This document shows, one piece after another, positions 10,405 to 49,468 of a stretch of DNA of 64,000 bases (its first letter is position 1; the number at the start of each line of letters is the position of its first letter). Origin of the DNA: a virus (lineage: Duplodnaviria > Heunggongvirae > Uroviricota > Caudoviricetes); IMG/VR virus record IMGVR_UViG_2671181136_000006; one strand, given 5' to 3'. The notes below the pieces were generated by a model that worked only from the letters and a program-made list of their open reading frames with translations, did not search any database and was not told where the DNA came from. A program made the position numbers and the translations under genes.

Positions 10405-10468
10405 AGCTGCCTGCTTCCGTATATTAATAATTAATATGTAGTTATTTATATATACAGAAGCAGGCTAA
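10405..10468. repeat. about 60-bp element: 14-bp inverted arms (CCTGCTTCCGTATA) flanking AT-rich spacer; second copy at 56495-56555
   Basis: direct sequence comparison of the two loci. Confidence 0.7.
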
Positions 10469-44686: not shown

Positions 44687-45073
44687 ATGTCTGACAACAA
44701 GATTGAATTTATAGAAAGTCGCTATGCTGCTTTTATCGCAGGGCTGATTGAATCCTCACCTATGAGTCAGGCCCAAATAGCCAGACTTATTGGTTATAAA
44801 AATGCCAACAACCTTTCTTTAATTAAAAGTGGCAAAATTCCTTTGCCTATCGATAAGGTTCGTCCGTTGGCGCTGGCGCTGGGTATTGAGCCAAGTCGTC
44901 TTATGATGATGGTGCTGGAAGAACGCCAACCTGAACTCGCAGCATTTTTATACAAAGAAGGCACCGCTCCTCTTAACGAGGACGAAAAACAGGTTCTTGC
45001 TGCATATAACGAGCGATTCGGTAAAGAGAAAGGCGCATCACAAAAGGTTGTTGAGGCTATAAAGTCTCTATGA
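44687..45073 (+). CDS. HTH DNA-binding protein (XRE-like), candidate repressor
   Basis: SQAQIARLIGYKNANNLSLIKSG helix-turn-helix pattern; start set to MSDNK (ORF track starts 44657). Confidence 0.5.
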   Translation: MSDNKIEFIESRYAAFIAGLIESSPMSQAQIARLIGYKNANNLSLIKSGKIPLPIDKVRPLALALGIEPSRLMMMVLEERQPELAAFLYKEGTAPLNEDEKQVLAAYNERFGKEKGASQKVVEAIKSL

Positions 45074-47423: not shown

Positions 47424-47770
47424 TGCTTTGCCTCATGCCACTTTTGCTTCAGGAGATAGCCTTCCAGGGGCCAGATTTGATCGATAGCATCTTTTCGAGC
47501 GTACTCGCGACCAACATCAAAGTTGAAGATTTCTGGTCTTACGCACGCAGATTTTCCCGTTACGGTATATCCATTTTTGAGAACCATAACGCAGAACGTT
47601 AAGAGTTTTAACGACTCATGACCTTTGTCGATATCTGTTTTTGAATTGTAAACAGAGATGAAGTTATCCCCGTGGCTGGCATCATATGCAGTGAAATAAT
47701 GTTCACTTTGAATGAGTTGTTCAATGTGTTCAGGGGTGACTTTTAGTGGTGTGTTCTCTTTGCTGGTCAT
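47420..47770 (-). CDS. hypothetical protein
   Basis: 116-aa ORF. Confidence 0.4.
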   Translation of the reverse strand: MTSKENTPLKVTPEHIEQLIQSEHYFTAYDASHGDNFISVYNSKTDIDKGHESLKLLTFCVMVLKNGYTVTGKSACVRPEIFNFDVGREYARKDAIDQIWPLEGYLLKQKWHEAKQ

Positions 47771-47811
47771 TATTTCTTCCTACAAAGTTCGTAGACTTGA
47801 CTCTTTCAGTT

Positions 47812-47845
47812 GCAAAAAAGGGGCCGAAGCCCCTTTGAATTTTGC
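47812..47845 (-). terminator. rho-independent terminator downstream of tRNA cluster
   Basis: GGGGCTTCGGCCCC hairpin followed by TTTTTTT on minus strand. Confidence 0.7.
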
Positions 47846-47992
47846 GCTGAAAAAAAAGTGTTGCTAGGATGTTAGCAAGCTATGGTTAAGAACGTCTGCC
47901 GTAATTGTCTATCACAGCGTTGAGCGGTCTGGTTTATGTTAGCGGAGTCTTAATCTGGGTGATTAAAAGGCCAAACCGCTCAACGCTGTGTC

Positions 47993-48079
47993 TGGCGGAG
48001 AGTAATGGAATCGAACCATCATCGCTTGCGCAATGGGACGGTTTTCAAGACCGCTTGAGCACCATGCTCCCTACTCTCC
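47993..48079 (-). tRNA. tRNA-Ser (anticodon TGA), class II with long variable arm
   Basis: manual fold: 7-bp acceptor GGAGAGT/ACTCTCC, anticodon loop CTTGAAA, T-loop TTCGATT, encoded CCA. Confidence 0.75.
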
Positions 48080-48443
48080 GGCCGTTGTGGTGGCCGGTAC
48101 TGAATCTCCGGCATACGGTGCAGCCAATTAGGACTACGGACGATCACCGCTCGCGAAAGGGAAGATTTGCGGCCGCATTTCCCTAACATCCAAGAAAGCT
48201 ATCGCATCAGTCTGCGAATCCACCACAACGGTAAGATCACTACCTTTCGACCAGTCATTGTGCACATGAACGACGATTAACCGTAATGATCTTATCGTTG
48301 TGTTGTGAAGCCAGATGCTTATCTTCTGGTTGCCTCAAAGAGCTGCACTTCCTCACAACGGTAAGAGCACTGGTCTGACTCTATCGATTTACGGGCTTGT
48401 GGGTCAGTATCGCCGATTCGCCCAATGCACTTACCTGTTGTGT

Positions 48444-48519
48444 TGGTGCCGGTTAACGGACTCGAACCGCTGACATCCTGCTTACAAGGCAGACGCTCTA
48501 CCAACTGAGCTAAACCGGC
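48444..48519 (-). tRNA. tRNA-Thr (anticodon TGT)
   Basis: acceptor GCCGGTT/AACCGGC, D-loop AGCTCAGTTGGTAGAGC, anticodon loop CTTGTAA, T-loop GGTTCGAGTCC, CCA. Confidence 0.85.
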
Positions 48520-48523
48520 AATT

Positions 48524-48610
48524 TGGTGGGGAGTGATGGAGTCGAACCACCCGAGTCGCCATGACAGTAGATTTACAGTCTACCCCGCTGCCCCTACGGA
48601 CTAACTCCCC
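48524..48610 (-). tRNA. tRNA-Tyr (anticodon GTA), long variable arm
   Basis: acceptor GGGGAGT/ACTCCCC, anticodon stem GTAGA/TCTAC loop CTGTAAA, T-loop GGTTCGACTCC, CCA. Confidence 0.8.
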
Positions 48611-48615
48611 TAAAT

Positions 48616-48690
48616 TGGCGATGGTGGGTGGATTCGAACCACCGACCAGTTGGTTAACAGCCAACTGCTCTACCGCTGAGCTACACCATC
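48616..48690 (-). tRNA. tRNA-Asn (anticodon GTT)
   Basis: acceptor GATGGTG/CACCATC, anticodon stem GTTGG/CCAAC loop CTGTTAA, T-loop GGTTCGAATCC, CCA. Confidence 0.85.
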
Positions 48691-49468
48691 AATTCAGCAC
48701 TGCCAGTATTTATTACTCAACAGTGCCAATCGCGACGGTTTAGTTTCTGCCAGGAAACGCACCGCTACTTGCACTTTTCGTTAGTGCCAGACGCTTTCGA
48801 CTTCGCTCAATAGTAGAAGGCAAAATCTTTAAGTAGATGATGTTTCTGAGGACAGCACCTACTTTGTAATTTATACAATGTGATGTATGGAATCATTTGT
48901 TGTGAAAACAGGCACCAATGGCAACAGTGGTTAAACCTACACAACAATCCTGTCTTCACAACGTTGAGGCCACTACTCCGATTGAATGTTTGCCCAACAT
49001 GTTACATATCAACGCTCGCCGGTATCTCTGTGAATAGAACCTTAGAATTGATAAAAATGTAATGGCCTCAACGTTATGTGCTGGCTAACCATACCAGCCG
49101 GGCTACGTCGCCGCTTTTTAACCCAGTATAAACGACATAATTGAACAAAATGACGTAACAGGATGGGCGGTCAGTGGCTAAGAATCCGGGAGTCATATGG
49201 AGTTGAAAATATACCAACCGCCCATTCTGTTACTTCATCGGAGGGAACATGAATGTTCCCTCCTGCGTTCTGCAATCACACTCGCTCAGTGTGTCCCATT
49301 TCGGTAACGAGGCTGGAAACTGACCTCGCTGGTGTTTGGCTTATTAGGCTACTGCCAGATAGACTTCTTCGTTTGCACTTGTATTTAAGTTCAAACAGTC
49401 GCGTCTCAACGAAAACAAAGTCATCTTATACACAAAAGATAAGTAAGTAAATACTTATCAATATGTTT

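What the first reader, a model, noticed from the sequence alone, without database searches (positions are those of the whole stretch)
47905..48700. tRNA island (Ser, Thr, Tyr, Asn) with tRNA-free structured repeats and a possible degenerate tRNA
Four intact CCA-encoding tRNAs are clustered on the minus strand with a strong terminator at 47812-47845. Between tRNA-Ser and tRNA-Thr lie about 360 bp with repeated CACAACGGTAAG motifs forming two long-range inverted repeats (about 48220-48300 and 48355-48445). A tRNA-3'-end-like sequence sits at about 48088-48112 and a 15-bp-stem hairpin at 47908-47985. These may be tRNA remnants or processed sRNAs co-transcribed with the tRNAs.
Basis: seen in the sequence. 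Interest (0 to 1): 0.45.

Follow-up and report, generated by a model that had tools for sequence, protein, structure and literature searches.

The report
Conserved RNA modules between phage tRNAs
The "repeats" between this phage-plasmid's four tRNA genes are copies of two widespread, unannotated structured RNA modules, a long spacer hairpin and a tRNA-like domain, that travel with tRNA genes in many enterobacterial phages including lambda and P1, and whose function is still unknown.

Summary
Four tRNAs (Asn, Tyr, Thr, Ser) lie on the minus strand, followed by a terminator, with long hairpins between them.

The hairpins are not chance and not simple tRNA wreckage. They belong to two families:
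- **HP**: 68-125 nt. The ~20-bp stem is CACAAC(A)GGUAAG.../...CUUNCCGUUGUG, with a bulged A, a U.U mismatch and a U.G wobble. The interior is hypervariable.
- **Y**: a tRNA-like domain with closing stem GUUGUGGUG/CACCACAAC, two hairpins whose loops are complementary, and a variable insert.

Both families show compensatory changes. They follow a fixed grammar: tRNA, 1 nt, HP, 6 nt, Y, 9-15 nt, then tRNA or HP. They are co-oriented with tRNAs (265 of 266). They occur in at least 120 viral contigs and in lambda, P1, P7, D6, N4-like and rV5-like phages.

No Rfam family covers them. Y has the same architecture as the prophage sRNA STnc100, but homology is not shown.

Upstream in the same noncoding island sits a conserved tmRNA-like tag template (ANEEVYLAVA**) with no recognisable tRNA-like domain.

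Best reading: co-transcribed RNA modules excised by tRNA-processing enzymes, probably acting as small RNAs. The function is inferred, not shown.

The parts
47814..47836 (-). Intrinsic terminator that ends the RNA island: AAAGGGGC-UUCG-GCCCCUUU followed by a U run.
   Evidence: Sequence and fold. The consensus scanner missed it.
47913..47990 (-). HP5, an HP-family hairpin of the CACAGC-GUUGAG.../...CUCAAC-GCUGUG variant. It starts 2 nt after the CCA of tRNA-Ser.
   Evidence: 20-bp stem, z = -9.7. Inverted repeat I3. Conserved in Cyrano, CMS-2020a and Klebsiella phage-plasmids.
47993..48079 (-). tRNA-Ser(UGA) with an unusual 8-bp acceptor stem and 4-bp T stem.
   Evidence: ARAGORN. It scores on the Rfam tRNA-Sec model at 46.6 bits, not on the tRNA model at gathering threshold. 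8/4 tRNA-Ser is reported in phages (PMC5389517).
48082..48231 (-). Y domain, a tRNA-like module. Parts: closing stem CCGUUGUGGUGG/CCACCACAACGG; hpA at 48202-48217 (UCGCA-GACUGA-UGCGA); an 89-nt variable insert; hpB at 48093-48112 (GCCGG-AGAUUCAGUA-CCGGC). It ends 4 nt before tRNA-Ser.
   Evidence: 12-nt perfect inverted repeat I10. MFE fold. Family covariation including loop-loop pairing. 97.5% identical in P7 and D6 and 75% in a Klebsiella Jedunavirus.
48224..48302 (-). HP4, an HP-family hairpin: CACAAC-GAUAAGAUCA.../...UGAUCUUACC-GUUGUG.
   Evidence: z = -5.0. Inverted repeat I1. Its 3' arm overlaps the 5' strand of the Y closing stem.
48301..48359 (-). Mini-Y: GUUGUG...hpB-like CCAGA-AGAUAAGCA-UCUGG...CACAAC, lying between HP3 and HP4.
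   Evidence: Covariance model R1, 28.2 bits, E = 1.6e-5. The same unit occurs in D6, P1 and a Klebsiella phage-plasmid.
48354..48442 (-). HP3, an HP-family hairpin of the main class: CACAAC-A-GGUAAG.../...CUUACC-GUUGUG. It starts 1 nt after the CCA of tRNA-Thr.
   Evidence: z = -4.2. Absent from one CMS-2020a isolate, with the junction exactly at the CACAAC repeats.
48444..48519 (-). tRNA-Thr(UGU).
   Evidence: ARAGORN. Rfam tRNA, 72.4 bits.
48524..48610 (-). tRNA-Tyr(GUA).
   Evidence: ARAGORN. Rfam tRNA, 39.7 bits.
48616..48690 (-). tRNA-Asn(GUU).
   Evidence: ARAGORN. Rfam tRNA, 75.5 bits.
48957..49078 (-). HP2, a 122-nt HP-family hairpin of the CAUAAC-GUUGAGGCCA.../...UGGCCUCAAC-GUUGUG variant, upstream of the tRNAs.
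   Evidence: z = -6.2. Inverted repeat I4.
49150..49238 (-). HP-like long hairpin with a different base (GUAACAG.../...CUGUUAC).
   Evidence: z = -5.1. Inverted repeat I2. Family membership was not tested.
49268..49416 (-). M module, a tmRNA mRNA-like-domain look-alike. The tag frame 49376->49347 encodes ANEEVYLAVA, with two stop codons at 49346-49341 followed by hairpins.
   Evidence: Weak Rfam tmRNA hits here, stronger in relatives. A 10-codon frame is conserved in 56 loci with 14 nucleotide variants. Structure covaries. The order M-HP-Y-tRNA is seen in independently ascertained loci.

Best explanation
**What it is**

The stretch 47814-49416 (minus strand) is one untranslated RNA island. Real tRNAs alternate with two kinds of conserved structured module.
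- **Y** is a tRNA-like domain. It has an acceptor-like closing stem (GUUGUGGUG/CACCACAAC), a D-arm-position hairpin (hpA) and a T-arm-position hairpin (hpB). The loops of hpA and hpB pair with each other. A variable insert sits where the anticodon arm would be.
- **HP** is a ~20-bp hairpin. Its base pairs a CACAAC at its 5' end, which in arrays doubles as the 3' closing strand of the preceding Y, with the GUUGUG that forms the acceptor-like 5' strand of the next unit. It closes a hypervariable interior.

**Proposed mechanism**
1. The island is transcribed as a polycistronic precursor.
2. RNase P cuts at the 5' side of each tRNA or Y acceptor stem. The usual 3' tRNA-trimming enzymes cut just after each CCA.
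3. HP and Y are thereby released as discrete, stable small RNAs of 60-230 nt.
4. Cutting 5' of GUUGUG would free HP's 5' CACAAC(A) as a single-stranded tail.
5. The released RNAs most likely act in trans as small regulatory or sponge RNAs. Their conserved scaffolds present variable segments, in the way the prophage sRNAs STnc100/PasD and AgvB/AsxR do.

**Shown here**
- The families exist.
- Their structures are under selection.
- They follow a fixed grammar and are co-oriented with tRNAs.

**Inferred**
- Transcription as a single unit.
- The processing sites.
- Any trans-acting function.
For: **The structures are not chance**
- HP z-scores run from -4.2 to -9.7. The upstream island scores z = -6.8.
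- Long inverted repeats cluster in the island.

**HP family**
- It is also in lambda immediately after tR' and in P1, P7, D6, N4-like and Phapecoctavirus phages.
- The stems are conserved while the interiors are unrelated. Lengths are 60-125 nt.
- On 73 distinct copies, 94.4% of cells are paired. Eight pairs change on both sides against 3.9 in shuffles (0 of 500). Slid controls give 35-63%.
- The conserved imperfections are a U.G wobble (58 of 73 copies), a U.U mismatch (58 of 73) and a bulged A that the selection pattern required. The wobble is a standard pair only on the tRNA-sense strand.

**Y family**
- 97% of cells are paired. Eleven pairs change on both sides against 4.0 in shuffles (0 of 500). 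Slid controls give 28-53%.
- The closing stem, which was not used to select the copies, covaries: GC 23, GU 6, AU 3 at one pair.
- The hpA and hpB loops are complementary, and the one variable position covaries (G-C 28, G-U 3, A-U 2, no A-C).
- A relative with canonical D and T arms, acceptor UGUGGUG/CACCACA and an encoded ACCA end scores 46.4 bits on Rfam tRNA.
- The Y covariance model finds that relative, and also finds the mini-Y in the window.

**Grammar and orientation**
- The order is tRNA, 1 nt, HP, 6 nt, hpA, variable, hpB, 9-15 nt, then HP or tRNA.
- Of 266 tRNAs within 1.5 kb of 209 asymmetric HPs, 265 are on the same strand. Fifty-one HPs start 1-2 nt after a CCA.

**Support for a small-RNA role**
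- The Rfam STnc100 consensus has the same layout: UGGUGAAU, hairpin, variable region, hairpin, CACCA.
- STnc100 and PasD are prophage sRNAs. PasD was recovered with Hfq by RIL-seq (PMC13192938).
- CACAACA is the consensus target of the GcvB R1 seed, and phage AgvB uses it as a sponge (PMC4104026).
- The window carries two 10-nt perfect complements to GcvB nt 71-81, at the 5' feet of HP3 and HP4.
Against: - There are no expression or end-mapping data for any copy.
- The Y fold in this window is not exceptional by energy alone (z = -1.46).
- The copies were collected with sequence patterns. The percentage paired in hpA, hpB and the HP base is therefore inflated by selection.
- Many loci are related, so the counts are not independent events.
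- Homology of Y to STnc100 is not demonstrated. Rfam's STnc100 model does not hit the window's Y, and my Y model does not hit D6's STnc100-like element.
- Most Y copies lack an encoded CCA.
- The near-identical flanks around unrelated interiors could reflect recombination at the flanks rather than selection on a scaffold.
- HP classes without CACAACA (GUUGAG, CACAGC) argue against a general GcvB-sponge role.
- In HP, the CACAAC is paired unless the helix base opens.
Confidence: 0.55

Rival explanations
1. The modules act only in cis. HP hairpins and Y domains are processing, insulation and stability signals for the tRNA operon. They would serve as RNase III or RNase E sites, folding insulators between tRNAs, or protection of a long untranslated transcript from Rho and exonucleases. 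The excised pieces would have no function of their own.
For: - They abut tRNA ends tightly (1-2 nt after CCA; 4-15 nt before a tRNA 5' end) and are strictly co-oriented.
- The stems are conserved and the interiors are free to vary, as expected if only the helix matters.
- A ~20-bp helix with a bulge and a mismatch resembles the known phage T7 RNase III sites (established knowledge, not tested here).
- Leader-trailer helices are known for rRNA operons (PMC10250234 abstract).
Against: - HP occurs in lambda and many lambdoid prophages with no tRNA nearby. About half of the HPs have no tRNA within 1.5 kb.
- The stem is conserved in sequence, not only in pairing, and Y has a conserved loop-loop contact. 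That is more than an insulator would need.
- The layout shared with STnc100, a family of prophage sRNAs, points to independent RNAs.
Confidence: 0.27
2. The features act at the DNA level. The CACAAC/GTTGTG inverted repeats are recombination or mobility sites, comparable to cassette boundaries, MITE-like terminal inverted repeats, or attC- or PeSL-like elements. They would shuffle tRNA genes and small cassettes between phages.
For: - Presence/absence differences between close relatives have junctions exactly at CACAAC direct repeats. Cyrano lacks the whole Thr-Ser spacer, and one CMS-2020a isolate lacks HP3 plus the mini-Y.
- Modules are reordered in Klebsiella phage-plasmids.
- The Y-plus-tRNA-Ser block is 95.6% identical between SSU5-like and P1-like phages, while the neighbouring tRNAs are 80-89% identical.
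- Flanks are near-identical around unrelated interiors.
Against: - 265 of 266 nearby tRNAs are on the same strand as the asymmetric hairpin.
- The conserved U.G wobble would be a C.A mismatch on the other strand.
- Loop-loop covariation, and a variant that scores as a tRNA, are RNA properties.
- No common recombinase exists. The hosts are P1-, lambda-, N4-, rV5- and SSU5-like phages. The only nearby recombinase here is a generic tyrosine integrase 1.7 kb away.
- The motif does not fit the attC R''/R' consensus RYYYAAC/GTTRRRY (read from the sequence).
- Ordinary homologous recombination between conserved RNA-coding flanks explains the mosaicism.
Confidence: 0.1
3. The elements are decaying tRNA pseudogenes and duplicated spacer debris with no function, which was the first reader's 'remnants' option.
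For: - Some HP interiors contain T-arm-like pieces, for example GGTTCGAATCC in D6 and P1 and CAGAGTTCGACTCTCTG in others.
- Y has tRNA topology, and most copies have lost the CCA.
Against: - Compensatory changes maintain every helix.
- The grammar is the same across unrelated phage families and Enterobacterales genera.
- The ends are highly conserved in sequence.
Confidence: 0.05

Closest known systems
STnc100 (Rfam RF02076) and PasD, prophage-encoded sRNAs of Salmonella and pathogenic E. coli
   Same: - The layout matches, as read from the Rfam consensus. It runs: closing stem xxUGGUG/CACCAxx, an AAU linker, a 5-bp hairpin, a variable region, then a 5-bp hairpin joined directly to the closing 3' strand.
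- The genomic niche matches: downstream of Q or pR' and near tRNAs in lambdoid prophages (PMC13192938, PMC12370729).
- D6 carries an STnc100-like copy (39.6 bits) immediately after an HP variant in the same island.
   Different: - The window's Y is not detected by the STnc100 model at E up to 10.
- My Y model does not detect the STnc100-like element.
- The hairpin sequences and loops differ, and no complementarity between the STnc100 loops is evident in the Rfam consensus.
- The function of STnc100 is itself unclear (PMC12370729).
tRNA and tRNA-like domains (the tmRNA tRNA-like domain, bacterial Y RNA)
   Same: - The order of elements matches: acceptor-like stem, D-position hairpin, central insert, T-position hairpin directly followed by the 3' acceptor strand.
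- An elbow-like contact joins the two loops.
- One relative with canonical arms and an encoded ACCA end scores as a tRNA.
   Different: - The window's copy has no T-loop or D-loop consensus, no anticodon arm and no CCA.
- It matches no tRNA, tmRNA or YrlA model.
- The elbow would be held by Watson-Crick loop-loop pairing rather than by a T-loop/D-loop contact.
AgvB and AsxR, phage-encoded anti-sRNAs 3' of pR' (PMC4104026)
   Same: - Both are phage-borne small RNAs in the same 'moron' region.
- Both have a conserved scaffold and a variable part.
- AgvB carries CACAACA, the GcvB R1 target consensus. That heptamer is also the 5' foot of the main HP class.
   Different: - AgvB and AsxR are 51-60 nt with their own terminators.
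- The Rfam AgvB and AsxR models do not hit here.
- In HP, the CACAAC is paired with GUUGUG unless the base of the helix opens.
Stable RNAs co-transcribed with phage tRNAs, and spacer-derived sponges. Examples: T4 species 1 and 2 RNAs (rnaC, rnaD); E. coli 3'ETS-leuZ; large GOLLD and ROOL RNAs next to phage tRNAs.
   Same: In each case, non-tRNA structured RNAs are embedded in tRNA transcription units and released by tRNA-processing enzymes (established knowledge, from memory).
   Different: - There is no sequence or model similarity. The Rfam GOLLD and ROOL families do not hit.
- The modules here are small, repeated and modular.
tmRNA (ssrA), including permuted two-piece forms. This comparison applies to the upstream M module.
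   Same: - The frame starts at a GCA 'resume' codon preceded by UAAAU and has 10 codons: AN[DE][DEN]xx[LM]x[AV]A.
- The stop codon sits in a hairpin loop, as in tmRNA helix 5, and a pseudoknot follows.
- Rfam tmRNA models partly match.
   Different: - No tRNA-like domain encloses it, and there is no acceptor 5' strand or CCA.
- ARAGORN finds no tmRNA.
- Only the tag region aligns to E. coli ssrA.

Membership tests
tRNA (Rfam RF00005 / ARAGORN) | A cloverleaf that scores above the family threshold: 7-bp acceptor, D arm, anticodon arm, T arm with T-loop. | tested here: not met
   The four annotated tRNAs pass; tRNA-Ser passes with ARAGORN only and scores just under the tRNA-Sec gathering score. 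The window's Y (48082-48231), the mini-Y and the HPs give no hit with ARAGORN or Rfam at E up to 10. A relative (L116 603-714) does pass at 46.4 bits.
tRNA (Rfam RF00005 / ARAGORN) | A 3' discriminator base plus CCA that can be aminoacylated. | tested here: not met
   The window's Y ends ...CACCACAAC-GGCC and then tRNA-Ser begins, so there is no CCA after the stem. ACCA is encoded in L116 and L094 only. Charging cannot be tested with these tools.
STnc100 (Rfam RF02076) | A match to the family covariance model at its gathering score (47 bits). | tested here: not met
   There is no hit in window 47600-49400 at E up to 10. D6's neighbouring element reaches 39.6 bits, below the gathering score.
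STnc100 (Rfam RF02076) | Architecture: UGGUG/CACCA closing stem, AAU linker, 5' hairpin, variable core, 3' hairpin abutting the closing strand. | tested here: met
   The Rfam consensus and structure line were compared with the Y consensus. The order of elements is the same, and UGGUGAAU and CCGG...CACCA are shared.
tmRNA (RF00023 and permuted families) | A tRNA-like domain formed by the 5' and 3' ends, with a G3.U70 acceptor stem and CCA. | tested here: not met
   ARAGORN calls no tmRNA in the window or in relatives. Rfam matches cover only the tag region. BLAST to E. coli ssrA aligns only nt 79-125.
tmRNA (RF00023 and permuted families) | An mRNA-like domain: GCA resume codon, a ~10-codon tag ending in hydrophobic residues plus AA or VA, and a stop codon in the helix-5 loop. 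| tested here: met
   The tag is ANEEVYLAVA** at 49376-49341. There are 14 nucleotide variants, all of exactly 10 codons, and codon position 3 is the most variable. The stem pairing the tag's 3' end with sequence after the stop codon is 98% paired and covaries.
Integron attC sites / gene cassettes | R''/R' core sites RYYYAAC...GTTRRRY, and an IntI integrase with its characteristic extra domain. | tested here: not met
   The feet are (A)CACAAC / GTTGTG(A/G), which miss the consensus at one position or more on each side (read from the sequence). The nearest recombinase hits only generic Phage_integrase. The same hairpins occur in P1, lambda and N4-like phages, which have no common integrase.
AgvB / AsxR anti-sRNAs | A match to Rfam RF02702 or RF02703: a 51-60-nt RNA with a conserved 3' part and its own terminator. 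| tested here: not met
   Neither family hits at E up to 10. Only the CACAACA heptamer is shared (PMC4104026).
Hfq-dependent base-pairing sRNA (general class) | A discrete, stable transcript that binds Hfq and pairs with targets. | not testable with these tools
   This needs RNA-seq, CLIP or RIL-seq. No such data for these phages turned up in the searched literature.

The most novel reading that the evidence does not exclude
M, HP and Y together (about 380-400 nt, the size of a tmRNA) may form a phage-encoded, rearranged analogue of tmRNA. A tag-template domain (M) would be tethered in tandem, rather than nested, to a tRNA-like domain (Y). P1-like, SSU5-like and lambdoid phages would use it to act on stalled ribosomes. 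They could re-tag stalled products with a phage-specific C-terminal tail (...LAVA, ...MVAA, ...LMAA) or compete with host tmRNA-SmpB.

Not excluded by the evidence:
- The tag frame shows peptide-like conservation.
- The order M, HP, Y, tRNA recurs in loci ascertained independently of HP.
- Some Y relatives encode ACCA.
Probability: 0.1. Interest if true: 0.9.

Novelty: new variant of a known kind. Interest (0 to 1): 0.62.

Why it matters
Phage tRNA islands are usually read only as codon-usage or anti-defence tRNA sets. This analysis shows that the "spacers" in them are conserved RNA modules.

- **Reach.** The modules are shared across very different enterobacterial phages, including lambda (right after tR') and P1 (in the C1-controlled ban operon leader). 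Parts of the window's spacer match DNA in 695 of 5,426 complete E. coli genomes, mostly on plasmids. PGAP annotates no RNA for the modules in the rows shown, and no Rfam family covers them.
- **Links to known sRNAs.** If the modules are released as small RNAs, they add a large, modular class of phage riboregulators. They would also connect STnc100 and PasD, which are still unexplained, to a tRNA-like origin.
- **Annotation.** The families give a concrete rule for annotating these regions. They also explain mosaic breakpoints in phage tRNA islands.
- **The M module.** It raises a testable question: do temperate enterobacterial phages interfere with, or imitate, trans-translation?

Tried and rejected
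**Known RNA families**
- Rfam at gathering and relaxed thresholds, on the window and seven related loci, found nothing for HP or Y. No hits came from RtT, DicF, c4, GOLLD, ROOL, YrlA, AgvB, AsxR or any ribozyme family.
- The weak miRNA-precursor hits only reflect long hairpins.

**Other readings considered and dropped**
- *Additional or degenerate tRNAs in the window:* none found.
- *Integron attC or another site-specific recombination system:* the core consensus is not met and there is no shared integrase.
- *CRISPR-like repeat-spacer reading of the conserved flanks and variable interiors:* unit sizes are irregular, the flanks pair with each other, and there are no cas genes nearby.
- *rrn/nut boxA antitermination:* the HP 3' arm UGCUCUUU resembles boxA. 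However, the motif is sequestered in the stem and is absent from the GUUGAG and GAUAAG classes.
- *Chi site:* GTTGTGGTGG is not GCTGGTGG.
- *GcvB homology:* only a 13-nt patch matches (CTTACGGTTGTGA against CTTACCGTTGTGA, E = 1).
- *M as a recent capture of host ssrA:* only the tag region aligns.
- *Neighbouring proteins with RNA functions (SmpB-like, ligase, RtcB):* none. The neighbours are Gp49/66 family, glutaredoxin, integrase and ATP-dependent DNA ligase.

**Searches that led nowhere**
- Literature searches by sequence (CACAACAGGTAAG) and by tag peptide returned nothing.
- Model R1 cannot bridge inserts of about 90 nt or more, so it splits such Y copies into two hits.
- The promoter scan found no sigma-70 promoter for the island in this window. 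Read-through from the upstream same-strand genes is possible. Relatives have a clear TTGACA-17-TAGATT promoter upstream of M.
Full report
**1. What the window is**

The region matches E. coli phage-plasmids of the Cyrano / CMS-2020a type (SSU5-like). Parts of it also match P1-like phages (D6, P7, P1) and N4-like phages. Over 48080-48445 it is 100% identical to plasmid NZ_CP023851.1 of E. coli strain 4/0. PGAP annotates nothing there except tRNA-Thr.

**2. Checking the observation**

ARAGORN finds four minus-strand tRNAs:
- Ser(tga) 47993-48079
- Thr(tgt) 48444-48519
- Tyr(gta) 48524-48610
- Asn(gtt) 48616-48690

Rfam agrees for three of them. The Ser gene scores on the tRNA-Sec model at 46.6 bits instead. 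Its alignment shows an 8-bp acceptor and a 4-bp T stem, which is the "8/4" tRNA-Ser type already reported in phages (PMC5389517).

The terminator is at 47814-47836.

| Element | Coordinates | z-score |
|---|---|---|
| HP3 | 48354-48442 | -4.2 |
| HP4 | 48224-48302 | -5.0 |
| HP5 | 47913-47990 (20-bp stem) | -9.7 |
| HP2 | 48957-49078 | -6.2 |

Further points:
- With one exception at 10409-10465, inverted repeats with arms of 16 nt or more in the 64-kb window fall in 47912-49238.
- CACAAC and GTTGTG are about eight- to ten-fold enriched in the island.
- The whole stretch 47814-49416 has no convincing ORF and is strongly structured.

**3. Two families, not debris**

Close relatives differ by whole modules, with junctions at CACAAC repeats:
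- Cyrano has Asn-Thr-Ser with no spacer and no Tyr.
- One CMS-2020a isolate lacks HP3 and the unit after it.
- Another CMS-2020a isolate has two different hairpin-plus-domain units in the same place.

Reading those units side by side defines two elements.

*HP.* This is a hairpin of 60-125 nt.
- The stem is about 20 bp: CACAAC(A)GGUAAGAGCAUUG / CAGUGCUCUUUCCGUUGUG. Variant classes have GAUAAG, GUUGAG or CACAGC.
- The 30-80-nt interior is unrelated from copy to copy.

*Y.* This domain has four parts:
- a closing stem GUUGUGGUG/CACCACAAC
- a hairpin, hpA (GCGCA-GGCUGA-UGCGC), three bases after the 5' strand
- a variable insert of 32-162 nt
- a hairpin, hpB (GCCGG-AGAUCAGCA-CCGGC), joined directly to the 3' strand

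**4. Evidence that the structures are selected**

*Y, on 33 distinct copies:*
- 97% of cells pair.
- Eleven pairs change on both sides, against 4.0 in shuffles (0 of 500). Slid controls give 28-53%.
- The closing stem was not used to collect the copies, and it covaries.
- The hpA and hpB loops are complementary (GCUGA/UCAGC). At the one variable position, A occurs only with U.

*HP, on 73 distinct copies:*
- 94.4% of cells pair.
- Eight pairs change on both sides, against 3.9 in shuffles (0 of 500).
- Two imperfections are conserved, a U.U mismatch and a U.G wobble, each in 58 of 73 copies. A bulged A is present in every copy because the selection pattern required it.
- The wobble is a standard pair only on the tRNA-sense strand.

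*Caveats:*
- The copies were gathered with sequence patterns.
- Many loci are related.
- The percentages paired at pattern-fixed columns, and the raw counts, therefore overstate independence.
- The double-sided changes lie outside the fixed columns.

**5. Distribution and grammar**

- The HP-Y junction is in 19 species-representative genomes. All but two are Enterobacterales; the exceptions, Martelella and a Geobacteraceae MAG, look like contamination.
- HP-Y units occur in P1, P7, D6, a Klebsiella lambdoid phage, P22-like IME10, an N4-like phage, a Phapecoctavirus tRNA array and a Jedunavirus.
- Lambda itself carries an HP at 44787-44862, immediately after tR', followed by a Y-like closed domain (GUUGUGCUG...CAGCACAAC).

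The order is constant: tRNA, 1 nt, HP, 6 nt, hpA, variable region, hpB, 9-15 nt, then the next HP or a tRNA. Of 266 tRNAs within 1.5 kb of 209 asymmetric HPs, 265 are on the same strand. Fifty-one HPs begin 1-2 nt after a CCA.

Applied to the window, the grammar gives:
tRNA-Asn, tRNA-Tyr, tRNA-Thr, HP3, mini-Y, HP4, Y, tRNA-Ser, HP5, terminator.
The mini-Y (48301-48359) was found with a covariance model built from the Y ends (28.2 bits).

**6. Y is tRNA-like**

Two relatives (L116, L094) sit in the Y position after an HP and have:
- the same closing stem
- a canonical D arm and T arm
- a 40-60-nt insert in place of the anticodon arm
- an encoded A-CCA after CACCACA

L116 scores 46.4 bits on Rfam tRNA and is also found by the Y model. 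So GUUGUG/CACAAC is an acceptor-type stem. In typical Y copies, hpA and hpB occupy the D- and T-arm positions and are joined by Watson-Crick loop pairing.

In three loci a real tRNA-Arg takes the Y position, overlapping HP's GUUGUG by 3 nt.

The middle GUUGUG can pair either with the upstream CACAAC (the base of HP) or with the downstream one (the Y acceptor stem). Variants change all three strands together. D6 has CGCAAC / UUGCG / CGCAAC, and the P1 type has CAUAAU / AUUGUG / CACAAU.

**7. Comparison with known families**

- No Rfam family covers HP or Y.
- The Rfam STnc100 consensus has the Y layout: UGGUGAAU, hairpin, variable region, hairpin, CACCA. D6 has an STnc100-like copy (39.6 bits) right after an HP variant.
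- STnc100 and PasD are prophage sRNAs of unknown function; PasD was detected with Hfq by RIL-seq (PMC13192938, PMC12370729).
- Neither covariance model detects the other family's copies. I treat Y as architecturally the same kind, with homology unproven.
- CACAACA, the 5' foot of the main HP class, is the consensus target of the GcvB R1 seed. The phage anti-sRNA AgvB uses that motif (PMC4104026).
- The window has two 10-nt perfect complements to GcvB nt 71-81 at the feet of HP3 and HP4 (E = 0.25 each). This is suggestive only.

**8. Most likely mechanism**

The earlier sections established what is shown: the families, their selected structures, the grammar and the co-orientation. Everything in this section is inferred.

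1. The island is one precursor RNA.
2. RNase P cuts 5' of each tRNA or Y acceptor stem, and the 3' trimming enzymes cut after each CCA. HP and Y are released as stable small RNAs.
3. Cutting 5' of GUUGUG would leave HP with a free 5' CACAAC(A) tail.

I consider a trans-acting small-RNA or sponge role somewhat more likely than a purely cis-acting processing or insulation role, for two reasons:
- About half of the HPs, including lambda's, have no tRNA nearby.
- The scaffolds are conserved in sequence as well as in pairing.

The cis-only rival remains strong. DNA-level recombination sites and dead tRNA genes are unlikely as primary explanations, given the strand asymmetry and the covariation. Ordinary recombination between the conserved flanks probably does cause the mosaicism.

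**9. The tRNAs themselves**

In 55 long ORFs of the window, ACA makes up 29% of Thr codons (14.7 per 1000) and UCA 20% of Ser codons (13.2 per 1000). This is roughly twice typical E. coli K-12 usage, which I recall as about 7 per 1000 each. AAC/AAU and UAC/UAU look host-like. Codon compensation is therefore plausible for Thr(UGU) and Ser(UGA), and not evident for Asn and Tyr.

**10. Seen in passing: a tmRNA-like module**

At 49376-49341 the same strand reads GCA AAC GAA GAA GUC UAU CUG GCA GUA GCC UAA UAA, which is ANEEVYLAVA**. The E. coli ssrA tag is ANDENYALAA**.

*Similarity to tmRNA:*
- Rfam tmRNA families give weak partial hits here and stronger ones in relatives, up to 31.9 bits.

*Distribution:*
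- The module (M) is in 56 of the loci first collected. P1 and D6 carry ANDDLMMVAA and P7 carries ANDDLMMAAA.
- An M-specific pattern finds it in at least 120 viral contigs.

*The reading frame:*
- It is always 10 codons, starts GCA AAC GA, and ends [AV]A.
- Codon position 3 is the most variable.

*Structure:*
- The stop codon lies in a hairpin loop whose stem pairs the tag's last codons with downstream sequence. That stem is 98% paired and covaries.
- A second hairpin and an H-type pseudoknot follow.

*Context:*
- In loci ascertained by M alone, the usual order is M, about 80 nt, HP, 6 nt, Y, then tRNAs.

*What is missing:*
- No tRNA-like domain encloses M. ARAGORN finds no tmRNA, and only the tag region aligns to E. 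coli ssrA.
- A 2014 survey found ssrA only in mycobacteriophages among the RefSeq viruses and plasmids it screened, and named Bacillus phage G and mycobacteriophage DS6A from outside that set (PMC4131195).
- I found no paper with these tags.

Whether M works with Y as a rearranged tmRNA analogue is open. I give that 0.1.

Noticed in passing
window 49268-49416 (minus strand); tag frame 49376-49347, stop codons 49346-49341: A tmRNA mRNA-like-domain look-alike encodes ANEEVYLAVA**. The stop codon sits in a hairpin loop and a pseudoknot follows. The module is conserved, always with 10 codons, in P1 (ANDDLMMVAA), P7, D6, lambdoid and N4-like phages and in at least 120 viral contigs. No tRNA-like domain or tmRNA call accompanies it.
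   Followed up: partly
window 47993-48079 (minus strand): tRNA-Ser(UGA) has an 8-bp acceptor stem and a 4-bp T stem. It scores on Rfam tRNA-Sec (46.6 bits) rather than on tRNA. The D6 record notes that tRNAscan-SE could not call its amino acid. This 8/4 tRNA-Ser type is known from phages (PMC5389517).
   Followed up: partly
L016 488-563 (phage lambda 44787-44862) and the ~80 nt after it: Lambda carries a canonical HP hairpin immediately downstream of the tR' terminator, in the late-operon leader. A closed Y-like domain (GUUGUGCUG...CAGCACAAC) follows it. The record has no annotation there.
   Followed up: partly
L116 603-714 and L094 about 2688-2800: These tRNA-like Y variants have canonical D and T arms and an encoded ACCA end. 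Their 'anticodon' stem covaries around a conserved 11-nt loop, UUGCCA(U/A)UGCU. L116 scores 46.4 bits on Rfam tRNA, but ARAGORN does not call it.
   Followed up: partly
window 48436-48445 and 48297-48306 (minus strand): There are two 10-nt perfect complements to the GcvB R1 seed (GcvB nt 71-81). They lie at the 5' feet of HP3 and HP4 and are partly outside the stems. CACAACA is the published GcvB target consensus, which the phage sponge AgvB uses.
   Followed up: partly
L002 (phage D6) 3766-3886: An STnc100-like element (39.6 bits, below the gathering score of 47) lies directly after tRNA-Ser and an HP variant. In that HP variant the foot has changed to CGCAAC/UUGCG on all three interacting strands.
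   Followed up: partly
L003 (phage P1) 3075-3644: The P1 genes plp and upl are annotated antisense to tRNA-Thr and to the HP and Y modules of the ban-operon leader. Given the conserved RNA structures on the other strand, these ORFs may be annotation artefacts.
   Followed up: no
window 48691-49263 (minus strand): About 570 nt of further structured noncoding RNA lie between M and tRNA-Asn. It includes a perfect 11-bp palindromic hairpin (49240-49263), an HP-like hairpin with a GUAACAG/CUGUUAC foot (49150-49238), and a weak mini-Y (48895-48955). The mini-Y interior contains an 11-of-12 complement to the 3' end of tRNA-Thr (inverted repeat I16).
   Followed up: no
window, 55 ORFs of at least 120 aa: ACA (14.7 per 1000) and UCA (13.2 per 1000) are used about twice as often as I recall for E. 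coli K-12. This fits codon compensation by the Thr(UGU) and Ser(UGA) tRNAs. Asn and Tyr codon usage looks host-like.
   Followed up: partly
L142 (Martelella alba scaffold, 4.2 kb) and L143 (Geobacteraceae MAG contig): The enterobacterial HP-Y junction sequence appears exactly in contigs assigned to an alphaproteobacterium and to a Geobacteraceae MAG. This is probably contamination or mis-binning.
   Followed up: no
window 47814-47836: The obvious intrinsic terminator was not reported by the consensus terminator scan. A possible reason is that the stem was extended into the T run.
   Followed up: no
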